The notes beneath the pieces were generated by a model. The model made no database searches. It was given only the letters and a program-made list of their open reading frames with translations, and was not told where the DNA came from. Of a stretch of DNA of 14,611 nucleotides, positions 609 to 14,507 are shown in pieces. Made by a program: the position numbers and the translations under genes. The stretch's first letter is position 1. Each line of letters starts with the position of its first letter. The stretch covers positions 1 to 14,611 of the forward strand of contig CAYLZE010000121.1 in assembly GCA_964388035.1 (NCBI GenBank), read 5' to 3'. Source of the stretch: an uncultured archaeon (GTDB taxonomy: Archaea; Asgardarchaeota; Lokiarchaeia; Sigyniarchaeales; SOKP01).

Positions 609-1271
609 ATGAATAATAAAACTAAGACTAGAAAAATTGCCCGTTCTAAGGAAGAAAAAGATAAGCAGTTTCAGAGAATTTTAGATAAAGGAAGGGAATT
701 ATTTGTATCTTTAGGAACGGATGGTCTTAATACGCGTACTCTTGCTAAACATTTAAAAATGTCACAAGGAAATCTTTATACCTACGTAAAGAGCAAAAGA
801 GAACTATGGATCGCTATTCGCAGAGAGGATTTTAAAAAATTTAAGGAGGAAATGGAACAAGTGGTTGAGGATCATAAGGGGTCCTATTTTTCTCTTTTAG
901 AAGAATTGATTTTATTTTTCTTTGAATTTTCCCGCACTGAACCACGCCGATTTAAAATGATGTTCGTGATTCCTGCCCCTTCCTCTAAGATTGTTGGACC
1001 CATTGAAAAAAATTATGAAGTGATTAATCCTTTAGATGTTGTTCGGAATGTCGTGCAAAAAGCGATCGAAGCAAAAGAATTAAAAGTGGATAATGTCGAA
1101 AATTTTATCTATTTTTATTATGCCATAGCATATGGAGCGGCTCATGTTATGAGAGATCTCCCTAAAGATGATAATATTATGGAGCCGATCAATATGAGTT
1201 CAAATTATGATTCAGTAGAGAGTTTTAAAAATTACGTGATAGAGCAAATGAGAATCTTATGTAAAGTATGA
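609..1271 (+). CDS. TetR/AcrR family transcriptional regulator (220 aa)
   Basis: N-terminal TetR HTH signature ILDKGRELF-x3-GTDGLNTRTLAKHLKMSQGNLYTYVKSKRELW; helical C-terminal ligand-binding region; typical length. Confidence 0.95.
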   Translation: MNNKTKTRKIARSKEEKDKQFQRILDKGRELFVSLGTDGLNTRTLAKHLKMSQGNLYTYVKSKRELWIAIRREDFKKFKEEMEQVVEDHKGSYFSLLEELILFFFEFSRTEPRRFKMMFVIPAPSSKIVGPIEKNYEVINPLDVVRNVVQKAIEAKELKVDNVENFIYFYYAIAYGAAHVMRDLPKDDNIMEPINMSSNYDSVESFKNYVIEQMRILCKV

Positions 1272-2964: not shown

Positions 2965-4374
2965 TTAAAGGTTTAATTCAGCTAATTTTTCCTTATTTTC
3001 TTTAGTTTTTTCATTGGTCAAGGAATAAAATAAAGTAAAAATCACGGAGCTCGCCAGTAATATTATTGCAGGAAGCCAACTCATCATTGCTATGATACCT
3101 TGCTTGGCCGAAAGTGGTAACGTATAGAAATCAGCATCAGGATTGAAGAAAGTAATAGTGTGAATAATTGCTATGATAAAAGGAGTCATCAAAATTCCAA
3201 ATCGGTTTAAAAAGGCATAGATTCCCCCATATATGCCTTCTTCTCTAACTTTTGTTTTCAAGGTTATTTCATCGATGACGTCACTGAAAACAGGGAGGCT
3301 TACGATCGAGTTAGACCCTTGACCCAGTCCCAGAACAATTCCCATGATTATTGCCATGGTAAAATCTGTCACGAAGAACGCAATACAGAAACCACTGATC
3401 TGAACAAAAATTCCTGCGATAAAGGTGTATTTATTTCCCAATTTCTTCATGCTAGCATACCAAATGGGCATGGAAATGAAAGTAAAAAGGAAATACACTA
3501 CCGTCAAAATCCCCATGTTTTCGATCCCCAGATTTAATATGAAAATGATCCAATAGACTAAGGTAGATAATAACAAGGTAAAAGCCATTTGATTACATAT
3601 TCCTATGCAGGAATAAGCCAGGAGATTTTTATTTTTCAAAGCTGTCTTTAGTGCTTTGAAAAAAGCGGGTTGTTCTCGCTTCTGAGCTAAGTCCATTGCA
3701 TGAGAAATCATGTCTTTATCTTCCCGAACACCGTAAAGGCCTAGAAATATGGATGCAAACCCGGGAATCATTAAAACGAGGGCAGCAAGTAAATAACTAC
3801 TGGCTTCTCTTTCGACTATGAACAAGGGAGGTAAGATGCTTGGTAACACGTACCCTATCGCTAAAGTTATCGCACTTAGCCCTGAAACTTTACGGCGTTC
3901 TGAATCAGTTCGGAATTTCTCGGGAAATAGGGCTGTTAAGGGCGCACCTACCATTGTCCAGCACAACTCGTGAATCAACAAAATTACCGTGAACCAAATG
4001 AAAATAATAGTCTGAGAACCATGAGGTGGAGTCCAGATGAGAAGAAAAGTGATAGCTGTCGGGAATGCTCCTGCTACTATCCATGGAAAGCGCCTTCCCC
4101 ATCGCTTGGTAATACGAGTAGGTTTATCTGAAAGGTGTCCTATGAGAGGATCATTAAAAGCATCCCATAGAAAAAATAAACCCATGGCTAAAGCAATTAA
4201 TCCGGGATTAAGACCGATGACGACTTCATAAAAGAAAAAATAATAATACGCTATCATGTTCCATGTTAACATGAGGTTAACATTCATGGAATTGTAGGAC
4301 AAATGCTTAAGAAGGGAATATTTTTGCTTTTCTTCTTTTTCTATTTTCTTTGTACTCAAATCATTTTTTGGCAT
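2965..4374 (-). CDS. GPH (glycoside-pentoside-hexuronide):cation symporter, MelB/MFS_2 family, 469 aa
   Basis: About 12 hydrophobic segments; WDAFNDPLIGHLSD, TKRWGRRFPWI, ERRK and SDVIDE...REEGIYGG are GPH signatures. Confidence 0.95.
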   Translation of the reverse strand: MPKNDLSTKKIEKEEKQKYSLLKHLSYNSMNVNLMLTWNMIAYYYFFFYEVVIGLNPGLIALAMGLFFLWDAFNDPLIGHLSDKPTRITKRWGRRFPWIVAGAFPTAITFLLIWTPPHGSQTIIFIWFTVILLIHELCWTMVGAPLTALFPEKFRTDSERRKVSGLSAITLAIGYVLPSILPPLFIVEREASSYLLAALVLMIPGFASIFLGLYGVREDKDMISHAMDLAQKREQPAFFKALKTALKNKNLLAYSCIGICNQMAFTLLLSTLVYWIIFILNLGIENMGILTVVYFLFTFISMPIWYASMKKLGNKYTFIAGIFVQISGFCIAFFVTDFTMAIIMGIVLGLGQGSNSIVSLPVFSDVIDEITLKTKVREEGIYGGIYAFLNRFGILMTPFIIAIIHTITFFNPDADFYTLPLSAKQGIIAMMSWLPAIILLASSVIFTLFYSLTNEKTKENKEKLAELNL

Positions 4375-4596: not shown

Positions 4597-5499
4597 ATGA
4601 TCTCTCAAACCTCTTCAAAGTTTCGACTCATGGCTTTATTTTTACTGATCTTGGCAACTATGTTATGGGGCAGCAGTTTCATCATTACTAAAATTGTAAC
4701 AAAAAATATTCCCATTTTTTTTTATTTGGGATTGAGGTTTACACTTTCGCTCTTAGGATTAATCCCGTTTTTATTTCTTGTTAAAAAAGTTGAAAAAAAG
4801 AATATAATCATGGGAGTAGTCACGGGAATCATTTTTTTTTTAGGCATGCTATTTCAAACCTATGGTATTCAAGAAACAAGTGCTGGAAAAACAGGTTTTA
4901 TAACGGGGCTCTCCACGGTCATGGTACCTTTCATGATTGGATTTAAGAGTCATCAGCGCTTAAAAAGAAAAATATGGATAGCCGTTCTATTATCTGTAAT
5001 TGGAATGGCTCTCCTTCTATTGGAAGGAGAATCGGGATTATCATGGGCAGATGTATTAATTTTAATATGTGCCTTTTTTTTTGCCCTTTATATCGTGTTG
5101 AATGATAGATACGTTAAACTGGTAGATGTGTATCTATATACAATTATACAGCTAACACTGGTAAGTTTATTAAGTTTTGTTAGTTCATTTCTATTACAAG
5201 AGCCATGGGAATTAACATCCTTTGATTTCAATTTTTGGATACTCATAATATATTTAGGTGTGATTGTGGCAGCATTTGCATTTATATTTCAAAATTGGAG
5301 TCAAAAACACTTGACTCCTTCGCAAACTGCTATTATTTTCACTTTAGAACCAGTATTTGGACTCCTTTTTGGAATATGGATTGGGAATGAAACTATCTCA
5401 CTATTGGGGGGAATAGGATGTGGATTGATATTCTCTGCCATATTTATAAGTTCGTTTAAAGATCAAGTCTCAGATTTGGTCAGCGAACAGGTGGGTTGA
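4597..5499 (+). CDS. EamA/DMT family transporter (300 aa)
   Basis: ATMLWGSSFIITK, LRF, FQTYGIQETSAGKTGFITGL, FQNWSQK...TAIIFTLEPVFG...GNE; about 10 TM segments in two repeats. Confidence 0.95.
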   Translation: MISQTSSKFRLMALFLLILATMLWGSSFIITKIVTKNIPIFFYLGLRFTLSLLGLIPFLFLVKKVEKKNIIMGVVTGIIFFLGMLFQTYGIQETSAGKTGFITGLSTVMVPFMIGFKSHQRLKRKIWIAVLLSVIGMALLLLEGESGLSWADVLILICAFFFALYIVLNDRYVKLVDVYLYTIIQLTLVSLLSFVSSFLLQEPWELTSFDFNFWILIIYLGVIVAAFAFIFQNWSQKHLTPSQTAIIFTLEPVFGLLFGIWIGNETISLLGGIGCGLIFSAIFISSFKDQVSDLVSEQVG

Positions 5500-6211
5500 A
5501 ATGCAATTTCTTCTACTTCCAAAATTAAGGTTCAAATTTCACTTTAAATAAATTAAAACACCTTTTATCCCGAATTAGATCCCTCACTTATCTTTTATTT
5601 CCCAAATAATGGTTCAAACACAATGTTTCCAAGATTATTCTTGAATTTAAATGCCAATTTCACAAAATCACCTTGCTTTACAAGCTTTTCAAGGAATTCA
5701 AGGTGGCATGTTTCGCCTAATGATTTTTTAAGAAGAAATTCGATAAATTCGTAGCTAGAATTTAGATTGAATTAAAAATAAGTAGGAAATAGGATTTAAT
5801 AAAGCAGAAACTGATATGAATCTACTTGGCCCGAACATTCTTTTTGGTGCTTGGCCTTCTTAATCATTTTCAATCATTTTCACTCTACTTAACGCATTAG
5901 TTTAATATGGAAAAACAGCTCGTCTTTAAAAGGATAAGTTTTTTAAATCTTTGATTAAAATTTCTTACCATTTTTCAGATAAATTCAATTAAGTTAAAGA
6001 TTGAGGAGATTAAACAAATTGAAATTATTCTTCTTTTCTCTATTCCATATTATTTTCCTTCTATTAAAAAATAGATTAGCATGTTAGAAATTGTGATTCA
6101 TTTCTTAAATGACAATATTAAAAATGGTTAGTAACAATAGAGCAAGTGAAGGATTTAAAAAGTCTAAGAATGAAATCTAATTAACCGATGAAAAGGGTAT
6201 TATATGAAAGG

Positions 6212-7135
6212 TCAAAAAAGATATTGACCACACCCTTGCGAGGAAGCTTTTTTCAGTAAAAAGTAACCCTTATTACAAATTAACACTTGTTTTCCACATT
6301 CAGGGCACGAGGTTACTCTCACATTCTTACAATTTTTACACCATTTTACCGTTGTTAAGTGAGGAGATAATAGATTTTTTTCATTATACAATTTTCTTTT
6401 TGTTTGATGCTTATTCATTTTTTCCATTTTACGCCGACTTCTATCTCTTTCTAACATTTCGTGACGTTTAATGTTTCCGTTTTTATACTTTAAGATAGTA
6501 TCTTTATCAAATTTTTCATCCAAAATAGCATTCCCTACTTGAATTTTATCTCGCAAGGATCGCTCCGAGACATTGGTAATAGTAGCTGCTATACGTGTAA
6601 ACCGTATTTTTTTTCGTTTAACCTCCTCATCCTCTTTATTCATTGAATCAATTTGAGAACTGTCTTCCTCATTTTTTTTAAGATGAACTCCTCCGTGCTT
6701 ATTCTGCTTATAATTCATGAGTATAGCTCCTCTTTTCGTGCTGGGATTAAGTTCTTCATAAATCCTTTTCCACTTAGCCATGGCTATATCCACTTCATAG
6801 GGGGAAAGATCTTTTCGGCGTAAATTCTCTTGGATTTCTATGCTCAATTCTTCCAATTCATTCGTGTTGAGCTTCGTGATGGCGGGAATATACTTCCACC
6901 CCAACTTTTTACAAGCCGTTAATCGCCTGTAGCCTGCGATTAGCTTATAATCCTTATTAATAAGAATTGGATGAAATAAGCCCAAATTTTTAATTGAATC
7001 CATTAAATCATGCAATTCTTTTCCAGAAGTAATACGAACTCTTTCCTTTTCATTTATAATGATCTTATCAATCTCTATATGTTCAAGATCGGGAATCAAA
7101 GCTAAATTTTCAAGGGAGATTTTGCGTTGTATCAT
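6212..7135 (-). CDS. ParB/RepB/Spo0J-like protein with central HTH and Cys-rich C-terminal domain (307 aa)
   Basis: LMDSIKNLGLFHPILI, LIAGYRRLTA (GxxRxxA arginine patch), EIQENLRRKDLS; HTH-like FTRIAATITNVSERSLRDKIQVG; C-terminal CxxC-x7-CxxC-x6-C-x14-C. Confidence 0.92.
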   Translation of the reverse strand: MIQRKISLENLALIPDLEHIEIDKIIINEKERVRITSGKELHDLMDSIKNLGLFHPILINKDYKLIAGYRRLTACKKLGWKYIPAITKLNTNELEELSIEIQENLRRKDLSPYEVDIAMAKWKRIYEELNPSTKRGAILMNYKQNKHGGVHLKKNEEDSSQIDSMNKEDEEVKRKKIRFTRIAATITNVSERSLRDKIQVGNAILDEKFDKDTILKYKNGNIKRHEMLERDRSRRKMEKMNKHQTKRKLYNEKNLLSPHLTTVKWCKNCKNVRVTSCPECGKQVLICNKGYFLLKKASSQGCGQYLF

Positions 7136-7206
7136 TTTTATTTATTTATTTGAATTAGCACTCGTTGAACAATAATCATTGATTGGTGAATAAATTATTA
7201 CCAAAC

Positions 7207-7222
7207 TATTTAAACTTTTCTC
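7207..7222 (-). promoter_or_regulatory. Archaeal BRE/TATA promoter of the parB-like gene
   Basis: Minus strand GAGAAAAG-TTTAAATA, a near-canonical BRE+TATA about 70 nt upstream of the ATG at 7135. Confidence 0.6.
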
Positions 7223-7465
7223 AAAATACATATCTTCTTAAAAGATCAATAAGAAAAGGGTAAATAATGCAAAATTCCATCTATTTAAATAAAGAGATAA
7301 AATTCTCAATGCTTCCATCTTTGAATTAAAGTAATTTAATGTTGAGACTCTATTAAAGCTATTCTGCGAACTAATATAAAAAGCTGTCATAAGCGCTTTT
7401 TTATTCCTTAAGTCCATTCTTTAAATTATCCAAGAATTATACTACTAACTTTGAAAAAACAATAG

Positions 7466-7505
7466 ATTTATATATAAATTATTATACAATTATTTTTATA
7501 TAAAT
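7466..7505. repeat. 40-bp imperfect AT-rich inverted repeat containing two TATA-like palindromes
   Basis: ATTTATATATAAAT (7466-7479) and TTTATATAAA (7495-7504) are each palindromic; together the arms pair at 16 of 18 positions around a 4-nt centre. Confidence 0.55.
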
Positions 7506-7605
7506 ATAATCTTTATTAATTATAATTTCTTACAAAAAATCACTTGAATGTTTTTTTGTTATAAAATTTGACTATTTATTAATTTAAAATTGAGGTTTTA
7601 AAAAA

Positions 7606-8367
7606 ATGCAACTCCAAGATTTGTCCACATTAGATATATTGGAAGGATTTATGAGTCTGAGCTACGTTATCATCACACTTATAATGGCAATAAAAGTTCT
7701 ATGGAAATATAAAACGACCAAAGACAAAGTATTTATTACTGTTGGGGGAGCTCTTCTATTTTTAAGTTCTGGTTTATGGGGGCTTACTTTTTCATTCTTA
7801 TCCATTCTCCTAATTAACCAACCCCTTAGCAGATCTACTTATTTATCTCTTAATACTGTCTTTGGTTCAGCGGCTATACTTTGTTGGATGTATTCCTTTA
7901 GTGAGTTATGTTATCCCGATTTAAAAAAGAAAATTCTCTCATTCTACTTAAGTATTTGTGGAGTATATGAAGTTTTTCTAATTTCTTTTCTCATTGTTGA
8001 ACCGACTATTATCGGAACAGTAACTGGACCCCTTAATCAAGAATTGACGATATATCCTATTATATTTTCTATATTCTTATTACTTTCAACATTAATCTCA
8101 GGAATTCTTTTTGTTCGTGAATCCTTAAAAGCTGAAAAGAAAAGCATACAGATAAAGGGTAGATTTTTATTATTAGCATTTCTTTCCTTTACATTTGGCG
8201 AGATTCTTGATACTATATTACCTAAAGAAGCAGTAGTTATCATTATTGTCAGATTGATCATCATATCTAGTGTTTTTGAATATTATTTGGGCTTTTTCCT
8301 TCCAAAGTGGCTTGAAATAGCATTGATAAAAGAACAAGTTAGAATGGTACAGGAAATAGCAAAATAA
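7606..8367 (+). CDS. Uncharacterised seven-transmembrane protein (253 aa)
   Basis: Seven hydrophobic segments with basic loops (KYKTTKDK, LKKK, KAEKKSIQIKGR); ends in YYLGFFLPKWL plus a short tail; no cytoplasmic effector domain. Confidence 0.85.
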   Translation: MQLQDLSTLDILEGFMSLSYVIITLIMAIKVLWKYKTTKDKVFITVGGALLFLSSGLWGLTFSFLSILLINQPLSRSTYLSLNTVFGSAAILCWMYSFSELCYPDLKKKILSFYLSICGVYEVFLISFLIVEPTIIGTVTGPLNQELTIYPIIFSIFLLLSTLISGILFVRESLKAEKKSIQIKGRFLLLAFLSFTFGEILDTILPKEAVVIIIVRLIIISSVFEYYLGFFLPKWLEIALIKEQVRMVQEIAK

Positions 8368-8390
8368 TCAATAAATCGCAACGTTTTCTA

Positions 8391-8398
8391 TTTTTTTT
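8391..8398 (+). terminator. Oligo-T terminator candidate after the 7TM gene
   Basis: T8 run 24 nt after the stop at 8367. Confidence 0.5.
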
Positions 8399-8974
8399 AA
8401 ATTTACATTGCAAATTTGGCAGATGCAAATTCCTTCATTTTAAATTTTATACATAATATATCAATGAAACTTTATCCTATTTATTTCAAATGAATTTGAA
8501 TATACATTTTTCCTTATTAGTAATATAGATCGAATAATACACGATTGTACTGGTCTTTCATTTTTTGGAAAGTTAAATAAATTTACAATCCTAATCAAGC
8601 TTGGAAAATATTATGATATGACTCGTTTAAAATATCAACCTGAATTGAGTTGAATGAGATTTAATGATTATGAGATAAATGGCTCCTTCTCTAATTTTAA
8701 AAAATAAAACTAAAAAAAGGTTGAATTGGATCGGAAATCGATTTAAAAGTAAATAAAATTTAAGAGAATAACGATATTTAGCGTCAATCCTTACTCTTGC
8801 TCTTGTAGCTTTGAATCGGCTTCCCCCCTCAACTTTGACGATTCTTTATTATTCAGAATTTTATAATTTTTGACTCTAATTGGTTAAAATAATTTATTAT
8901 TAAAAAATTATAGAATTTACATTTAATTTTTAGTAATAAATTCTATAATAATAGAATTGAACTTTTGTAATAAA

Positions 8975-9811
8975 ATGAATGGGATAGATCTTAGTGTAAC
9001 TGGATAAAAGACGAAAGAGTCAATCTTCAAGTACGATTGGAAGAATGCAATATTATATGCCTTGAATATCGGATCCACGCCTGATGAGCTTTCCTTTATT
9101 TATGAGCGCGCAATTGAGGGTCTAAAAGTATATCCCAGTTTCGCAACTATCGCCACTTTTACTTCACTTCCAAATCCCGATATTAGGGTTGAGATTTCAA
9201 GATATATTCATGGAGAACAGCTCATTCGAATCCATGCATTCCTCAAAAAGAAAGATAAAATTAATCGTGTTGGAGTAATTACAAAAATCTATGATAAAGG
9301 GAAAGGAGCGGTGGTTCATTCGCTTGTAACAGGTCATAATATGAAGGGAAATCACCTTTTTGATACAAAATGGATCCATTTTTATTTAGGAGGCGGCGAA
9401 TTCGGAGGCGAAAGGGGTCCAGAACCTGAAGTCATAATGCCACCCGAAGGAAAAGAGCCCGATTTCAGCATATCCTTTAAAACTCATGAGAATCAAGCCG
9501 CTCTTTATTGGCTTAAGGGAAATCTTAATCAGATTCACATTGATAAAAAGTTTGTTATTAGGGCGGGGCAAAAAAAGCCATTCTTACATGGTTTATGCAC
9601 GTACAGATTCGCCATAAGAGCCATAATACAAGGTGCATGTGAAGAGGAATTGAATCGCTCTAAAGAATTCAAGGCACGATTTTCTGAAGTTGTTTTTCTG
9701 GGAGAAATTCTAACTATCGAAGGTTGGAAAGTAAATAATCGGAAATATATCATTCAAGCAAAAACAAAAAGAGTTCCTGTACTAACTAATGCATATGCAT
9801 TAATTGATTGA
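8975..9811 (+). pseudogene. Double-hotdog enoyl-CoA hydratase 2 / MaoC-family gene, disrupted
   Basis: ATG at 8975 is in frame with the 9062 ORF and reads MNGIDLSVTG*KTKESIFKYDWKNAILYALNIG with TAA at 9005-9007. Family motifs IHGEQ, IYDKGKGA, GGGEFGG, LHGLCT and KARFS are present, but the catalytic motif is degenerate (YWLKGNLNQIH). Confidence 0.85.
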
Positions 9812-10006: not shown

Positions 10007-11284
10007 ATGCTAACTATTTTACTTGATTTATTTTCTCAAATTTCTCTCAAATGGATTGATGATTGTAAAGATATTACTCGTGCTGAAGAATATCAAGGAT
10101 TACTTCAGATTTTTCCAAATTTAAAGACCTTTTTTGAGGAGGGAAAAGGTAGAGATTCTTCTGAGTTCAATAGAACGCTAAGTCATATTTTTCGATGCCT
10201 TAAGATATTTTCTTTATTGAAAGAAGGGTCAGTAACCTTCCATAGTACACTTTCTCCAATTTCCCATGAAAAGTTAAAGCGAAAAATTGATGATTTATCC
10301 TATAAAAAGGAAAATTTACTGCCACTCGTCTTAATTTATCACGATATTGGAAGATTTTTCGATCGAAAAAACCATCCAAATGAAAGTTACCTTAAGCTTT
10401 CACAAAATAATTTACTTTCTCCATATCGGTTAAATGAAACTGAACAAATTATAATTTCCAAAGTCATACAATATCATTTATTATTCGCAGCAATTTATAC
10501 GGGAGAATCTACTTTTTACGGAATTCATTCTCTATTAAACGATGAGGAATTCCAAAAAATAAGGTTAAAAGAAGATTCTACCAATGAATTTGTAGATCTC
10601 TTGGAGGTTTTTACATATATTGATGTTTTGGGTTATCCATATGCTAACATTTATGATCATTATCTTGATTATTACGAACAAATAAATCAAATTTTAAAAG
10701 ATCTTCTAAATTCGCATCAACAAAAAGAAACCATTTTAAATTCTGCTCTCCAGATATCAGAAGATTGGATAGAGTGGCGGATATCAGGAGGATTGCGTAT
10801 TTTCCAATTTATTGGAACCAAACCTCATCTTACTCGCGATTTCTATTTTAATAAACTAGAAAATAGTATCAAACACGTGAAGCTTGATTATATAAAAAAT
10901 AAGGATTGGTTCGAACTCAAAAAGGAATACCTAATTTACTCGTGTAGAGTTCAAATAAAATATGGATTGGGCGTTCTCATTCTTTTGGCATTTGGTAATT
11001 TTATTAGAAAACCGATGGAGGAAAATCAAGATGTCTCCCCAAAATTGCTTCTCTTTTGGATTTTAATTTCAAAAGAAATAAAGGAGCGTTCAAAAGGACG
11101 GGAAAATTATCTTTGGAATATCTTTTTTACCGGATTACCACATTGGTCTGAATGGAATAAAAATATGATTGAAAAATTAAATGAAAAAAATATTAAATCC
11201 ATAATTGAAAATTGCACGGAAAAATTAAATGGAGCTAAAGAAGAAGTAGATCTTCATCTAAACTTTAAAATAATCACCATATAA
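10007..11284 (+). CDS. HD-domain metal-dependent phosphohydrolase with unknown C-terminal half (425 aa)
   Basis: H60 (TLSHIFR), H112-D113 (LIYHDIGR), H123 (NHPNES), H157 (VIQYHL), D206 (TYIDVLG) in HD-superfamily order and spacing. Confidence 0.8.
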   Translation: MLTILLDLFSQISLKWIDDCKDITRAEEYQGLLQIFPNLKTFFEEGKGRDSSEFNRTLSHIFRCLKIFSLLKEGSVTFHSTLSPISHEKLKRKIDDLSYKKENLLPLVLIYHDIGRFFDRKNHPNESYLKLSQNNLLSPYRLNETEQIIISKVIQYHLLFAAIYTGESTFYGIHSLLNDEEFQKIRLKEDSTNEFVDLLEVFTYIDVLGYPYANIYDHYLDYYEQINQILKDLLNSHQQKETILNSALQISEDWIEWRISGGLRIFQFIGTKPHLTRDFYFNKLENSIKHVKLDYIKNKDWFELKKEYLIYSCRVQIKYGLGVLILLAFGNFIRKPMEENQDVSPKLLLFWILISKEIKERSKGRENYLWNIFFTGLPHWSEWNKNMIEKLNEKNIKSIIENCTEKLNGAKEEVDLHLNFKIITI

Positions 11285-11468: not shown

Positions 11469-12911
11469 TTAAATTCCCAGTTTTTCTAATTCATTGTCGA
11501 TTTGTTTTTTCTTCTCAGGAGATAAATCATAAACTTTCCAAAAGATGATTGTAGAGATAATGACTAAAATAGCCGGTAGAAGCCCAAAATGTCCAATTAT
11601 TCCTATTCGTGCTGAAAAGGGTTGATTTCCCGCTCCTAATTCGGCATTAAAATTAGTTATTGTATGAATAACAGCAAAGATTAAGGTGGTGAAGATAAAT
11701 ACAAATCTTGCGAAAAATGTCCTTATTCCCAGATATACTCCAGATTGTCGTTGTTTAGTAATTAAGGTTAATTCATCGCTAACATCAGCAAATAATGGCC
11801 ATATTACGACATGCAAACCGCCATTTCCAATTCCAAATATGAAAAGTAAGATTATAAGAAAAACAATCAATGCATCGCCAGTTTCAATAACATATAATCC
11901 ATAGGGTAGGATCATAAATAAAGCTGAAGCACATACAATATTTGATATGATAGTTACAGGTTTTAATCCTTTTTTCTTTATAATCTTGGTCCAAATGGGA
12001 ATAAAAACAAATACCCCAAGAATCACTCCGAGTTGGAAGATTACTATCATATCTGAAGACTCTAGCATTATGTAACGCACGAAATAAGGAAGAGATGTTC
12101 CTGCTAAGGAACCCATGGCGATAAACACAAAATACATTATAATATATGCAATAAAATTTCTGGCAGTTAAACTCTGTTTTAAGGAAGTGAAAAAGGAAAG
12201 TCTTTCTTCCATCTGTTCTTTTCTTTTTTCGGCAGATTCCAAGTAAAATTTAGTTAATTCTGGATCATCTTTCACCCCTGGAATCCCTAACAACATGGTA
12301 ACAATACCTAATATTGCGAGAACAAGTCCCATGAAGCCATAGGAACCCCTATTACCGAAAGTGAATAAGAGAGGCGGCAGTACCCCCGAAATCACAACAC
12401 CGATATTCCTTGTAATGGCGCTAATTTGAGCATTAGAAACTCTTTCCTCATTAAGCTGAAACTTTTCAGGATATTCTCCAAAATAATTGACATAAAAAAT
12501 GGAAAAAAAAGTATCACCGATACACAGAAATACCACTAACCAAATAAATAAACCAAATTCTCCAAAATTCGGGGGACTATACACTAAAGAATAAAAAAGG
12601 AACATGGGAATTCCCGTTCCGATAATCCAAGGCATCCATTTCCCCAATTTTTTCGTGAATCTGAAGGTTCTATCTGTAAGATATCCTAATAACGGGTCAT
12701 TTATCGCATTCCAAAGAGCGAAGATAATCTGAGCCGCCAAAATATACCAAATACCTAAAAAGGTCTCTGTTTCGTAAAAGAAAATGTAGAGACTTAAAAA
12801 GCCGGATTGAACCAACTCCTGTGAAAAACCAATAGTATTGTAAGATAAAATATTCCATTTACTATGTCTTGTTTTGGGAATACCTTTCATTTGGGTTATA
12901 TTTTCACTCAT
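11469..12911 (-). CDS. GPH/MFS_2 family transporter, 480 aa
   Basis: WNAINDPLLGYLTD, TKKLGKWMPWI, EERV, ADVSDE...RQSGVYLG; about 12 TM segments. Confidence 0.95.
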   Translation of the reverse strand: MSENITQMKGIPKTRHSKWNILSYNTIGFSQELVQSGFLSLYIFFYETETFLGIWYILAAQIIFALWNAINDPLLGYLTDRTFRFTKKLGKWMPWIIGTGIPMFLFYSLVYSPPNFGEFGLFIWLVVFLCIGDTFFSIFYVNYFGEYPEKFQLNEERVSNAQISAITRNIGVVISGVLPPLLFTFGNRGSYGFMGLVLAILGIVTMLLGIPGVKDDPELTKFYLESAEKRKEQMEERLSFFTSLKQSLTARNFIAYIIMYFVFIAMGSLAGTSLPYFVRYIMLESSDMIVIFQLGVILGVFVFIPIWTKIIKKKGLKPVTIISNIVCASALFMILPYGLYVIETGDALIVFLIILLFIFGIGNGGLHVVIWPLFADVSDELTLITKQRQSGVYLGIRTFFARFVFIFTTLIFAVIHTITNFNAELGAGNQPFSARIGIIGHFGLLPAILVIISTIIFWKVYDLSPEKKKQIDNELEKLGI

Positions 12912-13157: not shown

Positions 13158-14507
13158 TTAAGATTGTATTTTTGCTCGTTCCTTTTCCCATTTAAAGTCA
13201 AGAGTTATGAATTTTTTTGTAAAGAGAAGGGCGATTAGAATTACAAAAGAACACCACACTCCCCAGAGAACATAACCCCAAGAGAAATCTTGTCCGGGTA
13301 CGTTTGGCAAACCTAATATAAAACCTGTAACGAATAAAGCAATGGCTTGGAAAATATTCAGCAGGATTTGGGGAAACCCTGCATAGAGCCCAGATTTCCG
13401 TCCTTCACCAAATTTAACCTCTGCATCTTCCGCAGTATCTGCCAGCCATATATATGGAAAGAGATAATAACCCCCGAGAAATGCTGCAATTCCTAAAATG
13501 AAGAGAATGGCAACGATTAATCCTACTCCACCAGGAATGAGTCCAATTAAAGAAAAGGGCAATATGATGATTCCTGTAATGAGGATAATTAAGAAAGTCT
13601 GTTTTTTCCCTTTTTTATCGATCAATTTCTTCCACATGAATAGGAATACCACAATACCCAATAGAAGTGCCACGGCAGCAATGTACATGTCCGTCCCTCC
13701 GAATTTTAATACTTCTGTAATGAATCCTATGGCTGTGGGTGTGATCATGCCGATTGCCAAAAATGCAATGGCTTGCAGCCAACAGACATTCATGAAATTC
13801 TTATCTTTTAATACTTTCCTTAGATCCTCCTTGAAATGCATTTCTGCTCCTTGAATTTTCTCTACGGGCAAGGCAAGAGCGCAAATGTAAAATAAAGCGA
13901 TGACTAATGCGCCAAAACATATGATTATTACCGTGAAAGCAGGATCAATTTGATTAGTTGCTTGAAAAGAGTTTATGATAGGTGGAAATACTATTAAAGT
14001 AAAAATGACCGCGATTCCCGTCCCAACAAAACTGAATAAATTTTGAAAAGCAGAAGCTTTGGGTCTTTCATTCACGATGAATTGTTCGGAGACCCATGAT
14101 TGATATGGTGTCGTTAATCCTCCATAGGACCATTGGAAGACTGCATCCCAGATAATAATCCAAACAAATAGAATTAAACTACCAGGATTTTGAAGAAATA
14201 ACATTGGTAAGAGGGCAAAAATGAAGGACATTCCCGTAAGTGGAGCATAAACAAACATGAAAGGTTTTCTACGTCCAAATTTAGTCTTAGTTTTGTCTGA
14301 TAGCCATCCCATAAAGAATTGTCCACCAGCAATGCTCAATTTGCCAATCGCAGTTCCTATACCACTTAAGATTGGAAGAAGGCCATATGCCGTAATATAA
14401 AGATAGAGAATTCCAAAGTCAATTATATCTAAAACGATTCCAGCACTAAATCTCGGGCTTCCATAAATGACAAATTTTTTAATTGAAGTTTGGTTTGTTG
14501 AATTCAT
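13158..14507 (-). CDS. Divergent GPH/MFS_2 family transporter, 449 aa
   Basis: GWLSDKTKTKFGRRKPF, TPYQSW...ERPKASA, LADTAED...RKSGLYAG; about 12 TM segments; lacks the DxxNDP helix-II motif. Confidence 0.92.
   Translation of the reverse strand: MNSTNQTSIKKFVIYGSPRFSAGIVLDIIDFGILYLYITAYGLLPILSGIGTAIGKLSIAGGQFFMGWLSDKTKTKFGRRKPFMFVYAPLTGMSFIFALLPMLFLQNPGSLILFVWIIIWDAVFQWSYGGLTTPYQSWVSEQFIVNERPKASAFQNLFSFVGTGIAVIFTLIVFPPIINSFQATNQIDPAFTVIIICFGALVIALFYICALALPVEKIQGAEMHFKEDLRKVLKDKNFMNVCWLQAIAFLAIGMITPTAIGFITEVLKFGGTDMYIAAVALLLGIVVFLFMWKKLIDKKGKKQTFLIILITGIIILPFSLIGLIPGGVGLIVAILFILGIAAFLGGYYLFPYIWLADTAEDAEVKFGEGRKSGLYAGFPQILLNIFQAIALFVTGFILGLPNVPGQDFSWGYVLWGVWCSFVILIALLFTKKFITLDFKWEKERAKIQS

What the first reader, a model, noticed from the sequence alone, without database searches (positions are those of the whole stretch)
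6212..7135. Orphan ParB-like CTPase with an HTH and a nested six-cysteine C-terminal domain
Seen: intact ParB CTP-binding motifs (GYRRLTA, ENLRR), a charged linker, an HTH-like segment, a basic helix, then WCKNC-x7-CPECG-x5-C-x14-CGQY at the extreme C-terminus (6212-6343). There is no parA/MinD, integrase or replication gene in the window, and the gene is monocistronic. Established: bacterial ParB is a CTP-gated DNA clamp with NTD-HTH-dimerisation architecture, and orphan ParB-fold proteins such as Noc, VirB and KorB act in regulation or nucleoid organisation. Inference: a metal-binding (Zn or Fe-S) module may replace the dimerisation domain. An inner CPxCG knuckle is nested within an outer CxxC...C...CxxY set, and six Cys would allow a binuclear or inter-subunit site. 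This would be a metal- or redox-dependent CTP clamp regulator in an archaeon, an architecture I do not recognise as characterised.
Basis: partly seen in the sequence, partly recalled or inferred. Interest (0 to 1): 0.75.

Follow-up and report, generated by a model that had tools for sequence, protein, structure and literature searches.

The report
Asgard ParB-like protein with six-cysteine tail
An Asgard archaeon encodes a ParA-less relative of the bacterial DNA clamp ParB. Its usual dimerising tail is replaced by a small module with six invariant cysteines that probably binds metal, the family comes largely from mobile elements, and here it travels with a dedicated TetR repressor; no such ParB variant turned up in the libraries and papers searched, though it belongs to a protein class already known to diversify in this way.

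Summary
Window 6212-7135 (-) is an intact 307-aa gene with three parts:
- a ParB N-terminal domain with GYRRLTA and ENLRR motifs;
- a helix-turn-helix;
- a C-terminal module, C-x2-C-x7-C-P-x-C-x6-C-x14-C.

About 60 sequence clusters share this architecture. Across 59 aligned tails (19% mean identity) the only invariant columns are the six cysteines. The tail has no Pfam family. With a deep alignment it folds confidently (pLDDT 94.5) into a three-stranded sheet.

The organism is an Asgard archaeon. Its genome has two copies of this gene and no other ParB. No parA lies near either copy.

- The wider family sits mostly in mobile-element settings (integrase, primase-polymerase, ORFans). It is patchy among 400 Asgard genomes, multi-copy, and has decayed copies.
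- The window's subclade lies among catabolic and transporter genes and is paired with one TetR lineage. The window's TetR (609-1271) is that orthologue. The promoters share a TATA box followed by an operator-like element.

Best reading: a mobile-element-derived, ParA-independent, nucleotide-gated DNA-binding regulator whose metal-bound tail replaces the ParB dimerisation domain. Metal identity, dimerisation and nucleotide use are untested. It is a new variant of a known kind.

The parts
6212..7135 (-). Gene for the 307-aa ParB_N-HTH-six-Cys protein (P0001)
   Evidence: ORF list and translation; 15 close and about 60 distant homologues.
6779..7087 (-). ParB N-terminal (ParB-CTPase fold) domain, residues 17-119
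   Evidence: PF02195 E 1.5e-12. TIGR00180 59.3 bits against a cut-off of 58.45, N-domain only. Best PDB sequence matches are Noc and ParB at E 1e-18 to 1e-15. Foldseek top hits are Noc, pNOB8 ParB-N, M. xanthus ParB-CDP and KorB.
6914..6934 (-). Box II / P-motif GYRRLTA (residues 68-74)
   Evidence: Aligns to GERRWRA of Noc. G68 is invariant and R71 is at least 90% conserved in 44 sequences.
6815..6829 (-). Box III ENLRR (residues 103-107)
   Evidence: Aligns to ENLQRE of Noc. N104 is invariant; E100, E103 and R107 are at least 90% conserved.
6617..6721 (-). Variable charged linker, residues 139-173
   Evidence: pLDDT below 50 in the full-length model; length-variable and gappy in alignments A1 and A2.
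6482..6601 (-). HTH DNA-binding region, residues 179-218 (helices 179-187, 191-205, 211-218)
   Evidence: pLDDT 86-98. S190, E191 and R192 at the start of the recognition helix are invariant or nearly so in the subclade. Weak HTH_23/17/28 hits at the same place in homologue P0020.
6374..6466 (-). Long basic helix, residues 224-254
   Evidence: One continuous helix at pLDDT about 96-98 in the model from the deep alignment. The sequence is Lys/Arg-rich and poorly conserved.
6212..6343 (-). Six-cysteine C-terminal module, residues 265-307 (C266, C269, C277, C280, C287, C302) plus stop codon
   Evidence: All six Cys are invariant in 44 and 59 sequences. pLDDT 89-97, a three-stranded sheet. No Pfam family above threshold. 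A profile of the module alone recovers only ParB_N proteins of this family.
7170..7188 (-). Operator-like element CACCAATCAATGATTATTG, 35-53 nt upstream of the ATG
   Evidence: Nearly the same element, as part of 26-35-bp palindromes, lies upstream of the orthologues in L005 and L004 and of the own-genome paralogue. It is unique in the window and has one exact copy in the 5.47-Mb genome. The protein that binds it is unknown.
7207..7214 (-). TATA-like box TTTAAATA, 18 nt upstream of the operator-like element
   Evidence: Read from the sequence. The same AAAGTTT(T)AAATA context precedes the palindrome in L005, and similar boxes do so in L041 and L004. Promoter function is inferred.
609..1271 (+). 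TetR-family regulator, orthologue of the TetRs that sit head-to-head with the ParB-like gene in related genomes
   Evidence: TetR_N. It is 47-53% identical to the ParB-adjacent TetRs of L004, L005 and L006. Those TetRs have this gene and the paralogue-adjacent C9 TetR as their two best hits in the own genome.

Best explanation
The gene encodes a ParA-independent member of the ParB-CTPase fold.

Shown:
- The N-terminal domain keeps the phosphate-binding and catalytic boxes.
- A central HTH and a long basic helix follow.
- An invariant six-cysteine mini-domain ends the protein where canonical ParB has its dimerisation domain.

Inferred mechanism:
- The protein binds a specific DNA site through the HTH.
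- It binds a nucleoside triphosphate, most likely CTP, to engage its N-domains, acting as a DNA-bound switch or clamp in the manner of Noc, KorB, VirB and BisD.
- The cysteine module binds metal. The outer four Cys (C266, C269, C287, C302) form a structural Cys4 site, most likely Zn. The exposed CPxC knuckle (C277, C280) either completes a shared site with a second subunit or contacts a partner. The tail would thereby supply the C-terminal closure that the missing dimerisation domain normally gives.

Origin and role:
- The family arose on Asgard mobile elements.
- The window's subclade has settled among catabolic and transporter genes as a two-gene module with a dedicated TetR repressor.
- It most likely acts there in local transcriptional control rather than in segregation.
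For: - Domain identity: PF02195 and TIGR00180. Noc and ParB are the best PDB matches by sequence (E 7e-18 to 3e-11) and by fold. Box II and Box III residues are conserved across 44 sequences.
- HTH and helix are modelled at pLDDT above 90.
- Tail: six Cys invariant at 19% mean identity, confident fold, and sub-threshold similarity only to Zn-binding knuckle or cross-brace families such as DZR, HVO_2753_ZBP, ANCHR B-box and RpoP.
- The 8-Cys variants P0085 and P0147 insert one extra CxxCG knuckle next to the CPxC pair, as if completing a second site in cis.
- No ParA: none in the window. The nearest to the paralogue is 58 kb away. These two genes are the only ParB_N genes in the genome.
- Mobile-element origin: integrase, NikA-like and Mrr genes around three copies in G249. 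Primase-polymerase, group II RT, DDE transposase and ORFans surround distant members. Intact full-length genes occur in only 4 of 400 Asgard genomes, often in 2-3 copies, with stop-containing fragments elsewhere. The window's clade is nested within the family.
- TetR module: a head-to-head TetR in 4 of 7 loci, with the orthologous TetR 5 kb away in the window. The two own-genome pairs are equally diverged (TetR 46.3%, ParB 46%).
- A TATA box plus an operator-like element is shared upstream.
Against: - No nucleotide, metal, DNA or dimer interaction has been measured or confidently predicted.
- Nucleotide specificity of orphan ParB folds cannot be read from sequence (PMC12704722).
- I had no model coordinates, so the Cys pairing rests on secondary structure only.
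- The best structural matches of the tail are [4Fe-4S]-binding gamma subunits of glycyl radical enzymes (Z 4.5-4.8), so Zn is not secured.
- The shared operator may belong to the TetR rather than to this protein.
- In the window the TetR is not adjacent, and only one half of the palindrome is well kept.
- Context is known for only 14 family members, and the tree is a quick search with modest support.
Confidence: 0.5

Rival explanations
1. A maintenance or conflict protein of mobile elements, not a host regulator. The family would serve the plasmids, proviruses or integrated elements that carry it, for example in ParA-less centromere binding, silencing of element genes, or exclusion of competing elements. 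The window's copy would then be a recently captured or decaying passenger whose link to host genes is incidental.
For: Distant members lie in mobile-element contexts. The family is patchy and multi-copy, with pseudogene fragments among 400 Asgard genomes. The best viral-family matches are ParB-like PHROGs 3264, 4715 and 12047. The nearest relatives of the N-domain include ParB-methyltransferase fusions typical of phages. The 2025 survey finds orphan ParB folds enriched on mobile elements.
Against: The window's subclade (12 clusters) is intact. It keeps all motifs at 42-53% identity across genera. It lies among catabolic and transporter genes with no integrase, repeat or compositional break. 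It keeps a conserved TetR partner and promoter element. All of this points to selection in the host setting.
Confidence: 0.2
2. The tail is an iron-sulfur module rather than a zinc module. The outer C-x2-C...C...C set would hold a [4Fe-4S] cluster, as in the gamma subunits of benzylsuccinate synthase, alkylsuccinate synthase and 4-hydroxyphenylacetate decarboxylase. That would make DNA binding or clamp closure sensitive to redox state or oxygen in this anaerobe.
For: The only PDB chains that align to the whole Cys module are HPAD gamma (2y8n_B: Z 4.8, rmsd 1.6 A, 40 residues, 22% identity) and MASS gamma (9o8u_F: Z 4.5, rmsd 2.0 A, 40 residues, 20% identity). MASS/BSS gamma uses a CX2CXnCXnC motif for a [4Fe-4S] cluster (PMC12358834), and the outer four Cys fit that pattern. 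The hosts are anaerobes rich in Fe-S proteins (general knowledge).
Against: These Z scores are within the noise band of that search. Foldseek found nothing significant. At sequence level all weak similarities are to zinc knuckles and ribbons, and none are to Fe-S families. CPxCG is a classic zinc-knuckle signature. Six invariant Cys, not four, need explaining.
Confidence: 0.15
3. An enzyme rather than a switch. The ParB/Srx fold would act here as a nuclease or NTP-dependent enzyme, like the pNOB8-type ParB-N 'nuclease', Osa or the serine kinases, with the HTH and Cys module only targeting it to DNA.
For: The pNOB8-like ParB-N 'nuclease' is among the structural and sequence matches (5k5d: E 7e-6 by sequence; Foldseek rank 3). 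PHROG 12047 and others carry the label 'ParB-like partition nuclease'.
Against: Matches to the CTP-clamp proteins Noc and ParB are about 12 orders of magnitude better than to the nuclease-labelled, sulfiredoxin or kinase members. Box III, which is often lost in non-canonical orphans, is intact here. An HTH follows the N-domain as in clamp-type ParBs.
Confidence: 0.08

Closest known systems
Noc / chromosomal ParB (Spo0J) CTP-dependent DNA clamps
   Same: Closest by sequence and fold in the N-domain. The GxRRxxA and ENxxR boxes are kept. An HTH follows the N-domain. Like Noc, it works without ParA.
   Different: There is no HTH_ParB or ParB C-terminal dimerisation domain by Pfam, and no (L/F/I)G(K/R)G(L/F/I) ParA-binding motif. 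A disordered linker of about 35 aa separates the N-domain from the HTH. The tail is a six-Cys module. The Noc model scores 62.7 bits against a cut-off of 315. The host is archaeal.
KorB with its clamp-locking repressors KorA and TrbA (plasmid RK2)
   Same: A ParB-CTPase-fold protein used for gene regulation, encoded with a dedicated small repressor, and of mobile-element origin (PMC11790492). KorB is among the fold and sequence matches. Here a specific TetR lineage co-occurs and co-duplicates with the gene.
   Different: The similarity to KorB is weak (E 3e-5). The partner is a TetR, not a KorA or TrbA homologue. KorB also partners the ParA-type IncC, whereas no ParA is present here. No interaction has been shown.
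Orphan ParB-CTPase-fold fusions surveyed in PMC12704722 (2025)
   Same: It fits that paper's general picture: no ParA, links to mobile elements, and a lineage-specific C-terminal fusion.
   Different: The archaeal fusions reported there are CBS, ASCH, MT-A70 and HTH. That survey works from Pfam domains, and the six-Cys tail has no Pfam model. Its only mention of zinc is in its reference list.
Zinc ribbons and cross-brace zinc modules (DZR, HVO_2753-like, B-box), and the Rad50 zinc hook as a working analogy
   Same: CxxC and CPxCG knuckles on beta-hairpins. Weak profile similarity. A two-Cys knuckle at a hairpin tip could share a metal between two subunits, as the Rad50 hook does (my analogy, from general knowledge).
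   Different: No family reaches its threshold. Six Cys is neither a single Cys4 ribbon nor a complete eight-ligand cross-brace. No hook-like dimer was predicted or measured.
Gamma subunits of glycyl radical enzymes (HPAD, BSS, MASS), small [4Fe-4S] domains
   Same: Best structural superposition of the whole Cys module. The outer Cys follow CX2CXnCXnC.
   Different: Z is only 4.5-4.8. There is no sequence-level relation. Those proteins are enzyme accessory subunits, not DNA-binding proteins, and they lack the inner CPxC pair.

Membership tests
ParB-CTPase fold (Pfam ParB_N, PF02195) | Match to PF02195 above the gathering score | tested here: met
   47.9 bits against 26.3, residues 17-105.
ParB-CTPase fold (Pfam ParB_N, PF02195) | Box II P-motif GxxRxxA | tested here: met
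   GYRRLTA aligns to GERRWRA of Noc. G68 is invariant and R71 is at least 90% conserved.
ParB-CTPase fold (Pfam ParB_N, PF02195) | Box III ENxxR with the catalytic Glu and Asn | tested here: met
   ENLRR aligns to ENLQRE. N104 is invariant; E103 and R107 are at least 90% conserved.
ParB-CTPase fold (Pfam ParB_N, PF02195) | Binds and hydrolyses CTP (or another NTP) | not testable with these tools
   The survey states that sequence and AlphaFold3 do not predict specificity reliably.
Canonical ParB/Spo0J of a ParABS system | TIGR00180 full-length match | tested here: inconclusive
   59.3 bits against a cut-off of 58.45, but only profile positions 7-112 of 186 are matched.
Canonical ParB/Spo0J of a ParABS system | ParB-type HTH (PF17762) and C-terminal dimerisation domain (PF23552) | tested here: not met
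   Neither is found in P0001, although both are recorded for the canonical ParB P0016. The tail is the six-Cys module.
Canonical ParB/Spo0J of a ParABS system | N-terminal ParA-binding motif (L/F/I)G(K/R)G(L/F/I) | tested here: not met
   Absent from the N-terminus as read. The motif definition is from PMC12704722.
Canonical ParB/Spo0J of a ParABS system | Adjacent parA gene | tested here: not met
   No CbiA or AAA_31 match on contig C121. The nearest on C9 is 58 kb from the paralogue. None lies next to the homologues examined.
Noc (TIGR04285) | Score above the family cut-off | tested here: not met
   62.7 bits against a cut-off of 315, N-domain only.
KorB-like regulator with a clamp-locking partner | A dedicated repressor gene conserved beside the ParB-like gene | tested here: met
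   The orthologous TetR is head-to-head in L041, L004, L005 and L006 and lies 5 kb away in the window. An AsnC-family gene takes that place in L003. This is co-occurrence only.
KorB-like regulator with a clamp-locking partner | Physical binding of the partner to the closed clamp | not tested
Zinc ribbon / zinc knuckle domains | Match to a curated Zn-ribbon family above threshold | tested here: inconclusive
   Only sub-threshold hits: DZR in 13 of 47 members, the best being ANCHR B-box at E 8.4e-5, and Cas12f TNB at E 0.008.
Zinc ribbon / zinc knuckle domains | Tetrahedral Cys4 metal site | not testable with these tools
Only DSSP topology was used.
GRE gamma-subunit-type [4Fe-4S] domain | CX2CXnCXnC motif on the same small fold | tested here: inconclusive
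   The outer four Cys fit the motif. The structural matches have Z 4.5-4.8 and rmsd 1.6-2.0 A over 40 residues, which is not above background.

The most novel reading that the evidence does not exclude
An archaeal counterpart of the KorB/KorA long-range silencing system with a new closure device. In this reading, a ParB-type NTP-gated sliding clamp is closed at its C-terminal gate by a metal ion shared between the CPxC knuckles of two subunits, as in the Rad50 zinc hook; alternatively the gate is controlled by a redox-sensitive Fe-S cluster. The clamp would be loaded at, or locked by, a co-evolving TetR repressor at a promoter-proximal operator. The whole module would have been domesticated from Asgard mobile elements to control catabolic and transport genes.
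Probability: 0.12. Interest if true: 0.8.

Novelty: new variant of a known kind. Interest (0 to 1): 0.55.

Why it matters
ParB-type CTP switches have only recently been recognised as a general regulatory device. All characterised clamps close through a helical or lysine-rich C-terminal dimerisation domain. A family that replaces this domain with an invariant six-cysteine metal module would show either a new way to close or gate such a clamp, or a new output domain. It would also link clamp function to metal or redox state. The family lives in Asgard archaea, where chromosome organisation and the biology of mobile elements are almost unexplored experimentally. The conserved TetR pairing offers a simple two-protein, one-promoter system that can be rebuilt in vitro. 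The tail also deserves its own domain model, because domain-based surveys currently miss it.

Tried and rejected
- Homodimer prediction of residues 175-307 with four Zn gave no verdict (ipSAE 0.09-0.10, controls not run). It counts neither for nor against dimerisation.
- The first structure model, from 15 sequences, left the tail at pLDDT 40-55. Only the 59-sequence alignment gave a confident tail.
- Foldseek against the PDB with the C-terminal model found nothing at E <= 0.001. The VIA second look found only WW-like and Rpb9-like three-stranded sheets at Z 2-3.
- A search for terminal inverted repeats, or any repeated flank that would mark a single-gene mobile unit, found none. The flanks are unique in the genome, and the paralogue matches only inside the coding region at 64%.
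- There is no Rfam match in 5300-9100.
- The 712-bp and 470-bp flanks show no remnant of neighbouring genes from related loci.
- The IMG/VR scan with subclade peptide patterns returned only ParB-methyltransferase fusions without the Cys module. Alignment A2 was too diverse for that tool.
- tblastn against 50,697 phage records found no hit that covers the tail. The best hit is a cyanophage ParA-ParB pair.
- PADLOC matched only a methyltransferase model through the ParB N-domain.
- The upstream 253-aa gene (7606-8367) was tested as a possible degenerate TetR. It is a multi-pass membrane protein with no family match.
- The operator-like motif is not a dispersed, parS-like repeat: it has one exact copy and three copies with 3 mismatches in the genome.
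- The positional enrichment of a degenerate version of the motif is circular, because the motif was derived from those same regions. I do not count it as evidence.
Full report
**1. The observation.**
Window 6212-7135 on the minus strand is an uninterrupted 307-codon ORF.
- Pfam places a ParB N-terminal domain at residues 17-105 (E 1.5e-12, 47.9 bits against a cut-off of 26.3).
- NCBIfam gives N-domain-only matches to Noc, parB_part (59.3 bits against 58.45), PRTRC ParB and RepB.
- A profile of the family against all PDB sequences puts Noc and chromosomal ParBs first (E 7e-18 to 3e-11). The printed alignment lays GYRRL-A on GERRWRA and E-ENLRR on IENLQRE.
- The C-terminal string reads W-C-x2-C-x7-C-P-x-C-G-x5-C-x14-C-x2-Y, exactly at 6212-6343.
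- The gene is flanked by 712 bp and 470 bp without ORFs of note. Its neighbours are convergent on one side and divergent on the other, so it is monocistronic.

**2. More than chance.**
- A word-indexed search found 15 relatives at 42-53% identity, named in three sources as Promethearchaeota, Lokiarchaeota or Hermodarchaeota MAG proteins.
- An exhaustive profile search of 1.84 billion cluster representatives found 69 at E < 1e-30. About 60 representatives carry the same tail pattern.
- In 44 full-length sequences, down to about 25% identity, the invariant columns are S47, G68, N104, P131 and all six cysteines.
- In 59 aligned C-terminal halves (mean column identity 19%), the six cysteines are the only invariant columns.
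- A profile of the 48-residue module alone, searched among longer proteins, recovered only ParB_N proteins of this family. That tool's reach for so short a query is limited.

**3. Structure.**
- With 15 sequences, AlphaFold2 modelled the N-domain and HTH well and the tail poorly.
- With the 59-sequence alignment of residues 171-307, the model reached mean pLDDT 94.5. It has HTH helices 179-187, 191-205 and 211-218, one long basic helix (224-254), a short dip in confidence, and then a three-stranded antiparallel sheet (272-276, 283-288, 292-296) at pLDDT 89-97.
- DSSP also reports single bridges at residues 265 and 300.
- From this topology I infer that C266/C269 (just before strand 1), C287 (end of strand 2) and C302 (beside the 265-300 bridge) gather at one end of the sheet. 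C277-P-x-C280 forms the tip of the strand 1-2 hairpin at the other end.
- The full-length model matches Noc, the pNOB8-type ParB N-domain, M. xanthus ParB-CDP, C. crescentus ParB and KorB by Foldseek.
- The tail has no significant Foldseek match.
- In an exhaustive structural scan, the only chains aligned over the whole module are the [4Fe-4S]-binding gamma subunits of 4-hydroxyphenylacetate decarboxylase (Z 4.8, rmsd 1.6 A, 40 residues) and of (1-methylalkyl)succinate synthase (Z 4.5, rmsd 2.0 A, 40 residues).
- The latter family uses a CX2CXnCXnC motif for its cluster (PMC12358834), and the outer four cysteines fit that pattern. These Z values lie within that search's background.
- At sequence level, every weak similarity is to zinc knuckles, ribbons and cross-brace modules.
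- Zinc is therefore the more likely ligand and an Fe-S cluster is a live alternative.
- Two natural variants are informative. P0085 and P0147 carry eight cysteines, the extra pair being a CxxCG knuckle inserted right after the CPxC pair. P0054 has two complete modules in tandem.

**4. Genome and family context.**
- The window is a whole 14.6-kb contig of a 5.47-Mb Asgard assembly (96.7% complete, 7.3% contamination).
- That genome has just two ParB_N genes: this one and a 46%-identical paralogue on contig C9.
- It has twelve ParA/MinD-type matches. None is on the window's contig, and the nearest on C9 is 58 kb from the paralogue.
- Among 400 Asgard species genomes, intact full-length members occur only in the window's own taxonomic family, in four genomes with 2, 1, 2 and 3 copies. 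Several other genomes hold partial or stop-containing fragments.
- The three copies in G249 lie in related integrated elements with a tyrosine integrase, a NikA-like protein, an Mrr nuclease and many ORFans.
- More distant members sit near a 770-aa primase-polymerase and a Rad51-fold (RadA/KaiC-like) gene, near a group II intron reverse transcriptase and a 2,763-aa ORF, next to a DDE transposase, or among ORFans.
- Viral-family profiles labelled ParB-like match the N-domain and HTH. The nearest non-family relatives of the N-domain include ParB-methyltransferase fusions and forms with a different, cysteine-free tail.
- A quick maximum-likelihood tree of the N-domain plus HTH places the window's 12-cluster clade (SH-aLRT 88) deep inside the six-Cys family.
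- The family thus looks mobile-element-borne in origin, and the window's clade is a derived, host-resident lineage. This is an inference from 14 contexts and a tree with modest support.

**5. The TetR partnership.**
- In the window's clade the surroundings are metabolic: acyl-CoA synthetase, enoyl-CoA hydratases, M20 peptidase, Pab87-type peptidase, PLP enzymes, and MFS and EamA transporters.
- A TetR gene lies head-to-head with the ParB-like gene in four of seven loci, including the own-genome paralogue. An AsnC-type gene takes that place in one locus, and one locus is cut by a contig end.
- In the window the divergent neighbour is instead an unannotated multi-pass membrane protein. However, the TetR at 609-1271 is the orthologue of the ParB-adjacent TetRs.
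  - It is 47-53% identical to them.
  - They find it and the C9 TetR as their two best matches in this genome, ahead of all other TetRs.
- The two TetRs of this genome are 46.3% identical and the two ParB-like proteins are 46% identical, as expected if the pair was duplicated or acquired as a unit.
- Upstream of the window's gene, a TATA-like TTTAAATA (7214-7207) is followed 18 nt later by CACCAATCAATGATTATTG (7188-7170), 35-53 nt before the ATG.
- Nearly the same element forms part of a 35-bp palindrome in L005, a 27-bp one in L004 and a 26-bp one before the paralogue.
- The element is not dispersed in the genome. Which protein binds it, the TetR, the ParB-like protein or both, cannot be decided here.

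**6. What it most likely does.**
The safest statement (about 0.9) is that this is a DNA-binding ParB-CTPase-fold protein with a metal-binding tail. Beyond that I commit, at about 0.5, to a ParA-independent, NTP-gated DNA switch or clamp used for local regulation.
- It resembles Noc, KorB, VirB and BisD in principle.
- The cysteine module replaces the canonical C-terminal dimerisation domain.
- The TetR is a functional partner, by analogy with KorB and its clamp-locking repressors KorA and TrbA (PMC11790492, PMC13584720).

Rivals, all scored in the report sections:
- a purely element-serving maintenance or conflict role;
- an Fe-S, redox-sensing tail;
- an enzymatic (nuclease-type) role.

**7. 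Novelty.**
- A 2025 survey of the fold (PMC12704722) shows that ParA-less ParB folds are common and often on mobile elements.
- It also shows that they are fused to lineage-specific domains. In archaea it lists CBS, ASCH, MT-A70 and HTH.
- It does not report a cysteine-rich or zinc fusion. Because it is Pfam-based, it could not have seen a tail without a Pfam model.
- No other paper found by my searches describes the architecture.
- I therefore class it as a new variant of a known kind. It is interesting to specialists in ParB switches and Asgard biology, but it fits an already established pattern of diversification.

Noticed in passing
window 609-1271 (+) versus 6212-7135 (-): The TetR orthologue that is head-to-head with the ParB-like gene elsewhere is convergent with it here and 5 kb away. 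A C45-family acyltransferase/hydrolase (1431-2894), a GPH/MFS_2 symporter (2965-4374) and an EamA transporter (4597-5499) lie between them. This suggests an inversion or insertion that split the pair.
   Followed up: partly
window 5500-6211: A 712-bp stretch downstream of the gene has no ORF above 43 aa, no Rfam match and no protein-level remnant of neighbouring genes from related loci. That is unusually long for an intergenic region between convergent genes.
   Followed up: partly
window 2965-4374, 11469-12911, 13158-14507 (all -): Three MFS_2/GPH-type symporter paralogues lie on one 14.6-kb contig. I did not examine this.
   Followed up: no
window 7606-8367 (+) and 10007-11284 (+): Two ORFs have no Pfam, NCBIfam or PHROG match. 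One is a 253-aa multi-pass membrane protein divergent from the ParB-like gene. The other is a 425-aa protein.
   Followed up: partly
L045, L046, L047 (G249 contigs C23, C32, C24): Three related integrated elements occur in one Asgard genome. Each carries a six-Cys ParB-like gene preceded by a conserved ORFan of about 230 aa. One element has a tyrosine integrase, a NikA-like protein and an Mrr-type nuclease. A stop-containing ParB fragment lies 1 kb from the intact copy on C23.
   Followed up: partly
P0085, P0147, P0165 and P0054 (metagenomic homologues): These are tail variants. The first three are eight-Cys forms with an extra CxxCG knuckle. P0054 is a 412-aa form with two complete six-Cys modules in tandem.
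   Followed up: partly
P0030, P0033-P0035, P0038, P0045: A sister group has the same N-domain and HTH but a cysteine-free C-terminal domain of about 60 aa with a conserved W-x-E-I...E-P-x-E-I pattern. In the tree it is nested among the six-Cys forms, which implies tail swapping.
   Followed up: no
L048 (JGI 3300042087 contig): A distant family member lies 5 kb from an ORF of at least 2,763 aa and 3 kb from a split group II intron reverse transcriptase. This recalls the giant-gene elements reported for Heimdallarchaeia (PMC8813620).
   Followed up: no
Asgard family f13 (28 of 31 genomes): A different, nearly universal ParB_N protein of about 364 aa is present in another Asgard family. It matches only the N-domain of the profile and looks vertically inherited, unlike the patchy six-Cys family.
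   Followed up: no
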